From: Candidatus Daviesbacteria bacterium RIFCSPHIGHO2_02_FULL_43_12
GTDB lineage: Bacteria; Patescibacteriota; Microgenomatia; Daviesbacterales; UBA10151
NCBI GenBank assembly: GCA_001776775.1
Contig: MFDD01000002.1
Location: 37,746-101,745, forward strand
Direction of reading: 5' to 3'
Length of the DNA: 64,000 bases
Shown here: positions 245 to 6,470 of the stretch, piece by piece
Numbering within the stretch: position 1 is the stretch's first letter
Layout: the number at the start of each line of letters is the position of its first letter
Program-made: the position numbers and the translations under genes
Notes under the pieces: model-generated
Seen by the model: the letters and a program-made list of their open reading frames with translations, nothing else
Database searches by the model: none
Told to the model about the DNA's origin: nothing

Positions 245-700
245 TCAGACTCCTTGCAAAAAACCTTGACTCTTCGTAGCAGAGTCCTTATTCGCAATTA
301 TTACATCATTTACATCTTCATCGGAGACATTTTTCTCCCAGTCCGACTCTTTTCCTTCAAAATCTAGTATTACCGCACCTGCTTCTTTTACCAGCAAAGC
401 ACCACCTGCGATATCATGGATCGGGCAACCATTAATAATTTCAGCATCGTATCTGCCGGAAGCGACATAACATAGGTCAGTAGCAATGGATCCTGTACAG
501 CGATAAGTTCTCACTTCTCCTGCTAGTAATGAGCAAATCTTTCCATATCTTAGTTTCTCCTGAGCATTTTGGCCGCGATTTAAAGCTACAAATGCTTTAC
601 TTAGATCCACGGTTTGACTTATTTGAATCTTCGTGCCATTTAAGAATGCACCTTTACCTACTTCTGCAGTAAATAACTCATTCAGGATACGTTGAAGCAT
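245..700 (-). pseudogene. Inositol monophosphatase (IMPase/SuhB family) C-terminal fragment; N-terminal ~110 aa including the DPIDGT metal-binding motif are absent
   Basis: The 151-aa ORF matches the IMPase C-terminal half (GAFLNGTKIQIS..., WDIAGGALLVKEAG-like segment). Only 140 bp separate it from the next gene, so the missing N-terminal half cannot be encoded upstream. Confidence 0.55.
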
Positions 701-738
701 TCCCAGCTTTCGTTATCCAGAAACATTTGCATATTGAT

Positions 739-755
739 ATTGGTTTGCAACCAAT
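739..755. promoter_or_regulatory. Inverted repeat ATTGGT-N5-ACCAAT upstream of the RM operon (possible operator or C-box-like site)
   Basis: Palindromic arms are read directly in the AT-rich 140-bp region preceding the endonuclease gene. Confidence 0.2.
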
Positions 756-839
756 AGATATCGGTCAGGGTGTACTTATACACTATAGCCCTCCAAAACT
801 AGAAGAATTAAGAATGTGATTTTTTGATAGAATAAAGAT

Positions 840-1478
840 ATGAGTACTTCCCTCTCGCTCGAAGAAACAATTCAGGCACTTGCCACAAAATATGCTGCTG
901 CTTTGAAACAAAAGATAGATGACAGAGTTGAACTTATGAAAGATGATGAAAATAGTCACTATCTGATTTATAGAGTCCTTGGCATCACAGACGAAGAAGG
1001 GGCCTTAATAGATATTTATCAAAACAAGGGTCGATTTTTATATAAATATGCAGGATCTTTTTTAGAAGAAGCTACTCTTTTATGCTTCAAGGAGAAGTTT
1101 CCAGGCTCTAAAGGAAAGACAAGAATTGAAAATAAAATAGGCCAGCGTCCAAAGACCTTTGAAATTGATTGTTTGGTTGAGAATGAAGCATTTGAAATTA
1201 AATGGAAAGATGCCACAACCGATGGAGACCACATTACTAAAGAACACACGAGATTGAGAAGTATCAAAGCTGCTGGTTATACCCCGATAAGGATTATGTT
1301 TTACTATCCCACAAGAGAGCAAGCCATGAGAATACAACAAACATTAAGAACCCTTTATTTAGGAGTAGATGGAAAATACTATTTTGGTGACGAGGCATGG
1401 GAGTATGTAAAAGAGAAAACTGGCGTGGATCTCAAAGGAATATTGACAAGAATAGCAGATAAAAATCAAAACGGGTAA
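840..1478 (+). CDS. Putative type II restriction endonuclease (PD-(D/E)xK-like)
   Basis: 212 aa, ATG at 840. Its stop lies 3 bp before the methyltransferase start. It has a D...E-x-K-like motif (FEIDCLVENEAFEIKWKD). The assignment rests on position in an RM pair, not on recognised homology. Confidence 0.45.
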   Translation: MSTSLSLEETIQALATKYAAALKQKIDDRVELMKDDENSHYLIYRVLGITDEEGALIDIYQNKGRFLYKYAGSFLEEATLLCFKEKFPGSKGKTRIENKIGQRPKTFEIDCLVENEAFEIKWKDATTDGDHITKEHTRLRSIKAAGYTPIRIMFYYPTREQAMRIQQTLRTLYLGVDGKYYFGDEAWEYVKEKTGVDLKGILTRIADKNQNG

Positions 1479-1480
1479 CT

Positions 1481-2680
1481 ATGCAGATAAATAATGTATA
1501 TCTAGGTGATTGTTTAATAAAATTAAAAAAGGTAGAAGATAAAAGCATTGATTTAATCTATCTCGATCCTCCATTCTTTACAGGTAAAGCTCAGATACAA
1601 AAAACAAGAGATAATTCTAAAGAGTATCTATTCGATGACAAGTGGGAGGATCTCGATCAATATCTAAACTTCTTAAAGACAAGGATTATTGAATGTAAAC
1701 GCACACTTAAAGATACTGGTAGTATCTTTCTACATTGTGATAAGAACGCATCTCATTATATAAGAGTTTTATTAGATGAGGTTTTTGGCCCTGAAAACTT
1801 TGTAAATGAAATTATATGGACATACAAGAGATGGTCTAATGCAAAAAAAGGGCTTCTGAACGCTCACCAGAATATATTTTTCTACTCTAAGACAAAAAAA
1901 TATCAATTTTTTACCCAATTTACAGACTACTCCCCAACTACAAACATAGACCAAATATTACAAGCGAGAGAAAGAAATGAACACAACAAAACAGTCTATA
2001 AAAAAGATGCAAATGGAGAAGTAGTAACTGGTAAAGAAAAAGTGGGGGTACCTCTTTCTGATGTTTGGGACATACCATATCTAAACCCAAAAGCGGAAGA
2101 AAGAGTAGGTTATCCAACTCAAAAACCAGTAATCCTTCTCGAGCGCATTATTACATTAGTGACTAACGAAGGTGATGTGGTATTAGATCCATTTTGCGGA
2201 AGCGGTACAACACTGGTTGCAGCTAGTATAAATAAAAGACAGTATATTGGGATTGATATTTCAGAAGAAGCCACACAACTGTCAAAGAAGCGCATAAAAG
2301 AGGCTAAGATAACCAAATCTCATAGGTTAGAGAAAGGATTGGATTCTTACCTGAATAAGGAAGATTATGTAAGAGAAATATTATCTCAACTTGATGCTGT
2401 AATTGTAGAACGGAATAAGGGAATTGATGGTTTTCTTAAAAAACATATTGACGGAAAACCAGTTGCAATTTATGTACAAAGAAAAAATCAGTCATTAGCA
2501 GATGCTATTACTCTAATAAGAAAGGCTACGCACTCAAAAGGAGTTGGTAAAAAGATTTTAATAAGAACCAATGATGTTGCAGTTTTGTTTGATGAGGATA
2601 CATCAGATAAAGATGACCTTTTAATCATCGAGAGTTTAGATTTTCAAGTCTTTGAAAAATTTACTCGACCTTTAGTTTGA
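1481..2680 (+). CDS. DNA methyltransferase, N4-cytosine/N6-adenine family (beta-class; motif IV DPPF precedes motif I FCGSGTT), with an uncharacterised ~130-aa C-terminal extension
   Basis: Motif IV is IYLDPPFF near the N-terminus; motif I is VLDPFCGSGTTLVAA later. This is the PF01555-type architecture. Confidence 0.85.
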   Translation: MQINNVYLGDCLIKLKKVEDKSIDLIYLDPPFFTGKAQIQKTRDNSKEYLFDDKWEDLDQYLNFLKTRIIECKRTLKDTGSIFLHCDKNASHYIRVLLDEVFGPENFVNEIIWTYKRWSNAKKGLLNAHQNIFFYSKTKKYQFFTQFTDYSPTTNIDQILQARERNEHNKTVYKKDANGEVVTGKEKVGVPLSDVWDIPYLNPKAEERVGYPTQKPVILLERIITLVTNEGDVVLDPFCGSGTTLVAASINKRQYIGIDISEEATQLSKKRIKEAKITKSHRLEKGLDSYLNKEDYVREILSQLDAVIVERNKGIDGFLKKHIDGKPVAIYVQRKNQSLADAITLIRKATHSKGVGKKILIRTNDVAVLFDEDTSDKDDLLIIESLDFQVFEKFTRPLV

Positions 2681-6340: not shown

Positions 6341-6413
6341 GCCCCCATAGCTCAGTGGATAGAGCACATCGGTTCTAACGATTAGGTCGGAGGTTCAAAT
6401 CCCCCTGGGGGCA
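6341..6413 (+). tRNA. tRNA-Arg (anticodon TCT)
   Basis: Cloverleaf folded by hand. Acceptor GCCCCCA/TGGGGGC, D-arm GCTC..GAGC, anticodon loop GTTCTAA, T-loop TTCAAAT. No encoded CCA. Confidence 0.75.
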
Positions 6414-6470
6414 CTATAGAGGATTTTCGGGATTGTTTCTTTTGCTTTTTCCTCATTAGTCATATTTAAC

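What the first reader, a model, noticed from the sequence alone, without database searches (positions are those of the whole stretch)
245..2680. Type II RM pair adjacent to a 5'-truncated inositol-monophosphatase gene: probable insertion/deletion event
The IMPase-family ORF retains only its C-terminal half; the DPIDGT motif region is missing and there is no room for it upstream. It is followed 140 bp later by a tightly coupled pair: a 212-aa PD-(D/E)xK-like protein and a beta-class N4/N6 methyltransferase. RM cassettes are mobile and frequently land in, and then delete, adjacent genes. The endonuclease candidate has no recognisable family, which is normal for type II REases and makes it a potentially new specificity.
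Basis: partly seen in the sequence, partly recalled or inferred. Interest (0 to 1): 0.5.

Follow-up and report, generated by a model that had tools for sequence, protein, structure and literature searches.

The report
ApaLI-type restriction system beside broken phosphatase gene
An ordinary two-gene restriction-modification system of the well-known ApaLI family sits next to the leftover rear half of an inositol-monophosphatase gene in a groundwater Candidatus Daviesbacteria genome; it probably arrived by horizontal transfer, and its arrival may have removed the front half of that gene.

Summary
ORF 245-700 (-) is only the C-terminal ~145 residues of an inositol monophosphatase (Pfam positions 126-248 of 271). 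Its 5' end faces, across 139 bp, a restriction gene (840-1478, +) and a methyltransferase gene (1481-2680, +) two bases apart.

One claim is wrong. The 212-aa protein does have a recognisable family: it matches Pfam RE_ApaLI end to end (E 8.6e-95) and is 64-81% identical to the 120 listed of 5,463 homologues. It keeps the invariant E108/D110/E119/K121 nuclease residues, and its model resembles EcoO109I and PspGI. A new specificity is therefore unlikely; GTGCAC is the prediction.

Seven homologous loci from other organisms, six of them distinct, show the same endonuclease-then-methyltransferase pair. Four of these loci sit near resolvase, serine-recombinase or plasmid genes. The pair here has low GC (33-37% against 41.8%).

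The insertion-with-deletion story is plausible but unproven. No relative with an intact, syntenic site exists in the collections searched, no repeats flank the pair, and GTGCAC depletion (1 site in 64 kb) is not significant. The arrangement is identical in every contig of this population that was read.

Verdict: a new member of a known kind, of low interest.

The parts
245..700 (-). 3' remnant of an inositol-monophosphatase-family gene (151-aa ORF). It corresponds to residues ~118-262 of an intact 262-aa homologue. It keeps the C-terminal HDIAGG motif but lacks the N-terminal metal-binding DPxDGT region, so it is a probable pseudogene fragment.
   Evidence: Pfam PF00459 positions 126-248/271, E 2.4e-21. 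NCBIfam matches cover only the C-terminal halves of the models. It is 62% identical to P0002 aa 118-262. A family HMM aligns only positions 115-235.
701..839 (.). 139-bp spacer between the truncated IMPase 5' end and the endonuclease start. It holds the deletion junction (about 700-720) and presumably the promoter of the RM operon. GC is 33.8%.
   Evidence: No IMPase N-terminal signal with the family HMM. No DNA similarity to the regions upstream of homologous cassettes. No Rfam match and no sigma-70-like site. GC.
800..853 (-). Weak match, in frame with the IMPase ORF, of 'VLISLFYQKITFLILLVL' to residues 97-114 of the nearest intact IMPase. It could be a scrap of the deleted part or chance. 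It overlaps the endonuclease start codon.
   Evidence: Local alignment score 40, reached by 0.2% of 1,014 control stretches from the window and 0.5% of 3,000 shuffles. The family HMM does not support it.
840..1478 (+). Restriction endonuclease gene (212 aa) of the ApaLI family: a PD-(D/E)XK Type IIP enzyme with predicted site GTGCAC.
1481..2680 (+). Cognate DNA methyltransferase gene (399 aa). It is a beta-class N6/N4 amino-methyltransferase, probably N6-adenine, with a family-conserved C-terminal extension of ~115 aa that has no Pfam family.
   Evidence: PF01555 E 5e-58 over aa 23-270. The best solved relatives are CcrM and M.RsrI; M.PvuII is far weaker. It is 64-67% identical over its full length to the methyltransferases next to the closest endonuclease homologues, and 53% to that of Psychrobacter plasmid pA40P2. 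The C-terminal 117 aa give no significant Pfam hit.

Best explanation
Window 840-2680 is an intact two-gene Type IIP restriction-modification operon of the ApaLI family, in a Candidatus Daviesbacteria genome from groundwater.

How it works. The endonuclease, probably a homodimer, is expected to cut unmethylated GTGCAC. The co-transcribed beta-class methyltransferase, probably N6-adenine (giving GTGCm6AC), protects the host's own sites. The recognition site, the modified base and the homodimer are inferred; the family membership and the intact catalytic residues are shown.

How it got there. The pair was acquired horizontally as a bare R-M module. It lies directly against the stump of a resident inositol-monophosphatase gene that has lost its first ~117 codons, including the DPxDGT metal-binding motif. 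The loss is shown. That the stump is inactive is inferred from what is known of the family. The most economical reading is that integration of the module by illegitimate recombination replaced the 5' half of that gene, that is, insertion with deletion. This last step is inferred and not demonstrated.
For: RM identity:
- Full-length RE_ApaLI match (E 8.6e-95) and N6_N4_Mtase match (E 5e-58).
- Invariant PD-(D/E)XK residues are retained.
- The predicted fold is closest to the Type IIP enzymes EcoO109I and PspGI.
- The same R-then-M order, with a 382-404-aa methyltransferase, occurs in seven homologous loci from other organisms (L097 and L098 are the same cassette).

Foreign origin:
- The methyltransferase and endonuclease genes are the 2nd and 3rd lowest in GC of 59 ORFs, and the methyltransferase has the lowest GC3.
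- DNA similarity to other cassettes stops inside the two genes, at 861-2575.
- Relatives sit on a 6-kb Psychrobacter plasmid, on a ParA plus resolvase contig, and near large serine recombinases.
- The literature already reports multiple transfers and a patchy distribution for PF09499 (PMC3424549).

Truncation:
- Only the C-terminal half of the IMPase is present, and the missing half is absent from the window and from 10 kb to its left.
- The break (~700-720) lies within 140 bp of the cassette.
- The fragment has host-like GC (40.6%). It is as diverged from its nearest relative (62%) as the intact neighbour p181 is from its own (64%), which fits a resident gene cut fairly recently.

The arrangement is the same in all contigs of this population that were read, from several samples.
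Against: - No empty-site or intact-IMPase allele was found in any collection searched, so the order of events is unknown.
- No direct or inverted repeats flank the pair, and no mobility gene lies next to it in this genome.
- The GC deviation is moderate: the neighbour p181 also has low GC3.
- GTGCAC is rare (1 site against 5.8 expected from dinucleotides). The expectation falls to 2.2-3.7 under higher-order models, and other palindromes are equally or more depleted. The site prediction therefore has no independent support from the sequence.
- Identity to the prototype R.ApaLI itself could not be measured (REBASE was not available).
Confidence: 0.6

Rival explanations
1. The IMPase gene was truncated by an unrelated deletion or rearrangement. 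The RM pair arrived separately, before or after, at what was already a broken or intergenic site. The adjacency is not causal.
For: There are no flanking repeats or target duplication. Gene order in this lineage is highly scrambled: apart from the Trx-DsbD pair, no neighbour is shared with any of 79 related loci or with the two closest relatives. About 120-140 bp of unassignable sequence separates the break from the endonuclease start.
Against: The break lies within 140 bp of the cassette border. The fragment's ORF is still open and no more diverged than an intact neighbour, which argues against a long independent history as a pseudogene.
Confidence: 0.27
2. The IMPase stump travelled with the RM pair as part of the transferred segment, so it is donor DNA rather than a resident gene.
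For: RM modules can carry flanking scraps. The fragment's GC3 (29.6%) is on the low side.
Against: Its overall GC of 40.6% is host-like. None of the homologous cassette loci examined carries an IMPase fragment, and DNA homology between cassettes ends inside the R and M genes. The closest IMPase relative (62%) and the only relative of the resident neighbour p181 (64%) come from sequencing runs with near-consecutive accession numbers and show similar divergence, which would fit vertical descent if both belong to one organism.
Confidence: 0.06
3. The endonuclease has a new specificity, or the pair is no longer active.
For: Specificity was not measured. GTGCAC depletion is not significant. From memory and unverified here, the prototype M.ApaLI was described as a C5-cytosine methyltransferase (Xu et al. 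1998, PMID 9862476, not held), whereas this family branch pairs with an amino-methyltransferase.
Against: The family is extremely conserved: 60-65% mean column identity across phyla, with about 70 invariant positions, all kept here. The Pfam score is 316 bits over 189 positions. Both ORFs are intact and identical across many samples.
Confidence: 0.07

Closest known systems
ApaLI restriction-modification system (Acetobacter pasteurianus; G^TGCAC) and the Pfam family RE_ApaLI (PF09499)
   Same: The endonuclease matches the family profile end to end and well above threshold. It keeps the PD-(D/E)XK residues. PGAP names its plasmid relatives 'ApaLI family restriction endonuclease'. The family is already classed in the PD-(D/E)XK superfamily, with multiple horizontal transfers noted (PMC3424549, PMC2441816).
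   Different: Identity to R.ApaLI itself was not measured. The partner here and in all seven homologous loci examined is a beta-class amino-methyltransferase of ~380-404 aa. My recollection, unverified, is that the prototype M.ApaLI is a C5-cytosine methyltransferase.
Beta-class N6-adenine DNA methyltransferases (M.RsrI, CcrM, M.MboIIA; PF01555)
   Same: Motif IV (DPPF) is N-terminal to motif I (FxGxG). The best solved-structure matches are CcrM (E 1.6e-23) and M.RsrI (E 3.4e-21). A C-terminal extension follows the catalytic domain.
   Different: The ~115-aa C-terminal extension has no Pfam family. It was not compared with any other methyltransferase's C-terminal region. N6-adenine versus N4-cytosine is not established.
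RM-linked genome rearrangements: mobile RM units that insert or substitute without their own mobility genes (Furuta, Abe and Kobayashi 2010, PMC2853133)
   Same: A bare R-M pair of deviant composition lies beside a damaged resident gene, and homologues elsewhere are linked to recombinases or plasmids.
   Different: None of the documented signatures (long target duplication, flanking inverted repeats, an empty-site comparison) could be shown here.
EcoO109I and PspGI Type IIP endonucleases (PDB 1wtd, 3bm3)
   Different: Sequence identity is only 7-13%. No sequence-level relative has a solved structure.

Membership tests
ApaLI-family Type IIP restriction endonuclease (PF09499) | Full-length match to the family profile above the curated threshold | tested here: met
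   316.3 bits against a cut-off of 25, E 8.6e-95, protein 8-194 on profile 3-188/189.
ApaLI-family Type IIP restriction endonuclease (PF09499) | Conserved PD-(D/E)XK catalytic residues | tested here: met
   E108, D110 (FEID) and E119, K121 (EIK) are invariant in 27- and 36-sequence alignments and present in the window protein.
ApaLI-family Type IIP restriction endonuclease (PF09499) | Restriction-endonuclease-like fold | tested here: met
ApaLI-family Type IIP restriction endonuclease (PF09499) | Adjacent cognate methyltransferase gene | tested here: met
   The methyltransferase ATG lies 2 nt after the endonuclease stop. The same pairing occurs in seven homologous loci, six of them distinct.
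ApaLI-family Type IIP restriction endonuclease (PF09499) | Recognition of GTGCAC and cleavage G^TGCAC | not testable with these tools
   Only indirect evidence: 1 site in 64 kb against 5.8 +/- 2.2 expected from dinucleotide shuffles. It ranks 4th to 10th of 64 palindromes depending on the model (4th-7th in window plus flank; 10th in the window alone), and Poisson P is 0.02-0.30. Inconclusive.
Beta-class N6/N4 DNA amino-methyltransferase (PF01555) | Profile match, with catalytic motif IV (D/S-P-P-Y/F) N-terminal to AdoMet motif I (FxGxG) | tested here: met
   PF01555 197 bits, profile 1-221/221. DPPF at aa 29-32 and FCGSGT at aa 238-243, read from the translation.
Beta-class N6/N4 DNA amino-methyltransferase (PF01555) | Modified base (N6-adenine or N4-cytosine) | tested here: inconclusive
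   DPPF rather than SPPF, and the best solved relatives CcrM and M.RsrI (both m6A) with M.PvuII (m4C) much weaker, favour m6A. The NCBIfam adenine-methyltransferase models score below their cut-offs.
Functional inositol monophosphatase (PF00459) | N-terminal metal-binding region including the DPxDGT motif | tested here: not met
   Only profile positions 126-248/271 are present. No signal for HMM positions 1-114 in 245-1500, nor elsewhere in the window or the left flank.
Functional inositol monophosphatase (PF00459) | C-terminal (W/H)DxAAG-type motif and C-terminal domain | tested here: met
   HDIAGG is present, and the fragment is 62% identical to P0002 residues 118-262.
RM module inserted with deletion of host DNA | An empty or intact site in a related genome | tested here: inconclusive
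   No syntenic relative exists in GTDB representative genomes, in the 5.8-billion-cluster protein collection, or in JGI metagenome contigs.
RM module inserted with deletion of host DNA | Flanking direct or inverted repeats, or a target duplication | tested here: not met
   No repeat pairs the 701-839 border with the 2681-2730 border.
RM module inserted with deletion of host DNA | Composition deviating from the host's, and homologues on mobile elements | tested here: met
   GC 33.0% and 36.6% against 41.8 +/- 3.4%. Homologues occur on a plasmid, near a resolvase and near serine recombinases.

The most novel reading that the evidence does not exclude
The branch of the ApaLI endonuclease family found here is widespread in candidate-phyla-radiation (CPR) bacteria and other bacteria. 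It is always paired with a ~395-aa beta-class amino-methyltransferase that carries an uncharacterised, conserved C-terminal domain. This branch might recognise or be protected at a site, or through a modification, different from the prototype's (for example m6A rather than m5C protection of GTGCAC, or an altered site). The open 151-aa IMPase stump, transcribed divergently from the RM promoter region, might be retained for a reason.
Probability: 0.1. Interest if true: 0.3.

Novelty: new member of a known kind. Interest (0 to 1): 0.15.

Why it matters
It matters little beyond annotation.

The two genes, one of which NCBI labels 'hypothetical protein' in this genome, can be named as an ApaLI-family R-M pair with a predicted GTGCAC target. 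That is useful for anyone trying to predict phage or DNA barriers in CPR bacteria.

The neighbouring 151-aa 'Inositol_P' ORF should be flagged as a gene fragment, so it is not counted as a working IMPase in metabolic reconstructions of this reduced genome.

As an example of RM-associated gene loss it is suggestive but undocumented, because no empty site is available.

Tried and rejected
1. Synteny through the left neighbour. The 574-aa DsbD-thioredoxin protein retrieved 79 related loci. Only the Trx-DsbD pair is shared. No locus carries an RM pair or a close or similarly placed IMPase; L020 has only a distant (26%) IMPase in the opposite orientation.

2. Synteny through the right neighbour. 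p181 has one relative (P0120, 64%) on a 2.8-kb contig with different neighbours.

3. Context of the nearest intact IMPase (P0002, L013). None of its ten neighbours has a homologue in the window or the left flank.

4. Exact 23-mer scan of JGI metagenome contigs for an alternative allele. It found only an unrelated IMPase.

5. Search for remnants of the N-terminal half. The family HMM finds nothing. BLAST's collinear extension to residue 78, with two in-frame stops, adds only ~6 bits and was not accepted. A separate 18-residue in-frame match at 800-853 is statistically unusual but is displaced by ~100 bp and overlaps the endonuclease start, so it is left as unexplained.

6. Restriction-site avoidance as evidence for GTGCAC. 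The signal is suggestive with dinucleotide shuffles but vanishes under order-3 and maximal-order Markov models.

7. Flanking repeats, an HTH_17 controller remnant, Rfam families and sigma-70 promoters in the spacer. All were negative.

8. Sequence search of solved structures with the endonuclease gave no hit; fold search was needed.

9. The original ApaLI cloning paper (PMID 9862476) is not held, so the class of the prototype methyltransferase rests on memory only.
Full report
**What is in the sequence.**
- 245-700 on the minus strand (151 aa);
- 840-1478 on the plus strand (212 aa);
- 1481-2680 on the plus strand (399 aa).

The first ORF and the other two are divergent, so the 5' end of the IMPase-like ORF faces the 212-aa gene across 139 bp. 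The 212-aa ORF ends with TAA at 1476-1478 and the next ATG is at 1481, a 2-nt spacing typical of an operon.

The window belongs to Candidatus Daviesbacteria bacterium RIFCSPHIGHO2_01_FULL_44_2x (GCA_001777105.1), a candidate-phyla-radiation (CPR) bacterium from the Rifle aquifer (names). The identical arrangement is present in all contigs read that carry these proteins, from several samples.

**The IMPase fragment.**
- Pfam Inositol_P matches residues 5-124 to profile positions 126-248 of 271 (E 2.4e-21). NCBIfam models likewise match only their C-terminal halves.
- The nearest full-length relative is P0002 (262 aa). It is 62% identical over its residues 118-262, which correspond to window 682-248.
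- An HMM built from 107 full-length homologues aligns only positions 115-235. It finds nothing for positions 1-114 in any minus-strand frame of 245-1500, even with all filters off.
- tblastn finds no N-terminal half elsewhere in the window or in the 10 kb to the left.

So the first ~117 codons, including the DPxDGT metal-binding motif, are gone, while the C-terminal HDIAGG motif remains. From what is known of the family, such a fragment cannot be catalytic, so it is a gene remnant.

Its GC (40.6%) is typical of the window. Its divergence from P0002 (62%) equals that of the intact neighbour p181 from its only relative (64%). This suggests a resident gene that was truncated not very long ago.

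**A small loose end.**
The stretch 853-800 (minus strand) lies in frame with the ORF. It reads VLISLFYQKITFLILLVL against P0002 residues 97-114, VSISLFYQNSPYLSVIYL. This score is reached by only 0.2% of control stretches and 0.5% of shuffles. However, the match sits ~100 bp further from the ORF than it should, overlaps the endonuclease start codon, and is not seen by the family HMM. I leave it unexplained.

**The endonuclease.**
- It matches Pfam RE_ApaLI (PF09499) at 316 bits, E 8.6e-95, covering profile positions 3-188 of 189.
- The protein collection holds 5,463 homologues. The best 120 are 64-81% identical and come from Paceibacterota, Moraniibacteriota, Acidobacteriota, Anaerolineae and others. 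Several are named 'ApaLI family restriction endonuclease' by NCBI.
- In alignments of 27 and 36 members about 70 positions are invariant, including E108/D110 (FEID) and E119/K121 (EIK), the PD-(D/E)XK signature. All are present here.
- The literature already places ApaLI/PF09499 in the PD-(D/E)XK superfamily and notes multiple transfers and a patchy distribution (PMC3424549, PMC2441816).

The expected recognition site is therefore GTGCAC, and a new specificity is unlikely.

**The methyltransferase.**
- PF01555 matches at E 5e-58 over residues 23-270.
- DPPF (aa 29-32) precedes FCGSGT (aa 238-243), which is the beta-class order.
- The best solved relatives are CcrM and M.RsrI, both N6-adenine enzymes. 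The N4-cytosine enzyme M.PvuII is far weaker.
- Together with D rather than S in motif IV, this favours N6-adenine (GTGCm6AC), but it is not proof.
- Residues ~285-399 form an extension with no Pfam family. The extension is conserved with the rest of the protein: 64-67% identity to the methyltransferases of the closest cassettes and 53% to that of Psychrobacter plasmid pA40P2.

**A conserved, mobile module.**
Seven loci from other organisms were examined: L094, L096, L097 and L098 (one cassette seen twice), plasmid pA40P2, L101 and L102. All have RE_ApaLI followed directly by a 382-404-aa N6_N4 methyltransferase.

Their surroundings differ:
- L094 carries ParA and a resolvase.
- L096 and L098 carry a large serine recombinase.
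- pA40P2 is a 6-kb plasmid with MobC, a relaxase and RepM.
- L101 and L102 are ordinary chromosomal contexts.

DNA similarity between the window and the closest cassettes (68-71%) is confined to 861-2575, inside the two genes. The upstream regions do not align.

In the window, the methyltransferase and endonuclease genes are the 2nd and 3rd lowest in GC of 59 ORFs (33.0% and 36.6% against 41.8 +/- 3.4%). The methyltransferase has the lowest GC3 (24% against 38.9 +/- 5.7%).

Horizontal acquisition of a bare R-M pair is thus well supported.

**Did its arrival truncate the IMPase gene?**
In favour: the break (~700-720) lies within 140 bp of the cassette, and the missing half is nowhere nearby.

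The decisive comparison could not be made:
- The left neighbour pair (thioredoxin plus the DsbD fusion) is found in 79 representative genomes at up to 87% identity, but with no other shared neighbour.
- The nearest intact IMPase (L013) and the only p181 relative (L093) lie in unrelated contexts.
- A metagenome scan found no alternative allele.
- No direct or inverted repeats bracket the pair.

I therefore rate 'insertion with deletion' as the most economical reading, not as shown. An independent deletion is the main rival.

**Site avoidance.**
GTGCAC occurs once in 64 kb against 5.8 +/- 2.2 expected from dinucleotide shuffles. The expectation drops to 3.7, 2.4 and 2.2 under order-2, order-3 and maximal-order models. 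Several other palindromes are as depleted or more so. This neither supports nor contradicts the predicted site.

**Comparison with the known, and verdict.**
This is a new member (81% identity to the closest relative) of a well-known kind of Type IIP system. The one possible difference from the prototype rests on my memory of Xu et al. 1998 (not held). That paper, as I recall it, describes M.ApaLI as a C5-cytosine methyltransferase, whereas this branch uses an amino-methyltransferase.

The finding is ordinary. Its practical value is corrected annotation: an ApaLI-family R-M pair and an IMPase pseudogene fragment. Interest 0.15.

Noticed in passing
L007 2522-2603, 4129-4278, 6870-6965 (left flank, 2-7 kb outside the window start): Three copies of an 80-150-nt intergenic repeat (77-83% identity) separate small gene groups: the AbiEii group, a group of hypothetical genes, and the Trx-DsbD pair. 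No copy occurs in the window or at the RM borders.
   Followed up: partly
L001 10586-12782 (just left of the window) and loci L014-L092: The thioredoxin plus DsbD_TM-thioredoxin-fusion gene pair is kept at up to 87% amino-acid identity in 79 genomes of many CPR lineages and a few other phyla. No other neighbour is shared, which suggests the pair is itself horizontally exchanged.
   Followed up: partly
window 800-853 (-): An 18-residue match, in frame with the IMPase ORF, to residues 97-114 of the nearest intact IMPase. It is statistically unusual (0.2-0.5% of controls) but misplaced by ~100 bp and overlaps the endonuclease start codon.
   Followed up: partly
window 740-754 and 770-783: Two short palindromes lie in the 139-bp spacer upstream of the endonuclease gene: TTGGTTTGCAACCAA and GTGTACTTATACAC. 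The second contains GTGTAC, one base from GTGCAC. They could be operator-like sites or chance (read).
   Followed up: no
L096 2739-2915; L097 5819-5998; L098 3660-3839: In three homologous cassette loci (L097 and L098 being one cassette), a 58-59-aa HTH_17 gene sits immediately upstream of the endonuclease gene. It may be a controller or an excisionase. It is absent from the window, and no remnant was found.
   Followed up: partly
window 2333-2680 (methyltransferase residues ~285-399): A C-terminal extension of ~115 aa is conserved throughout this methyltransferase family but has no Pfam family.
   Followed up: partly
whole window plus 9.2 kb of left flank: Several other 6-bp palindromes are strongly under-represented. 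Under the order-1 model, CCTAGG occurs 4 times against 17.5 expected and AACGTT 2 against 14.6; under the order-2 model, TCTAGA occurs 7 times against 23.5 expected. GCATGC and GCCGGC are also depleted. This hints at other present or past restriction pressures, or at general CTAG avoidance.
   Followed up: no
window ~6341-6414 (L007 15502-15575) and L007 1068-1143: tRNA-Arg(TCT) lies ~3.7 kb right of the cassette and tRNA-Gly(TCC) ~8 kb left of the window start. Together they bracket a ~14-kb stretch rich in lineage-specific hypothetical genes, an AbiEii toxin gene and the RM pair. No att-like repeat was found.
   Followed up: partly
L020 5914-6747: In one related genome, a distant (26% identity) but full-length IMPase gene lies directly downstream of the DsbD homologue. 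It is in the opposite orientation to the window's stump, so this is probably coincidence.
   Followed up: partly
L002 6105-6647 (GCA_001777105.1): The NCBI annotation calls the endonuclease gene as 180 aa rather than 212 aa although the DNA is identical. The longer start at window 840 is supported by the Pfam match beginning at residue 8.
   Followed up: yes
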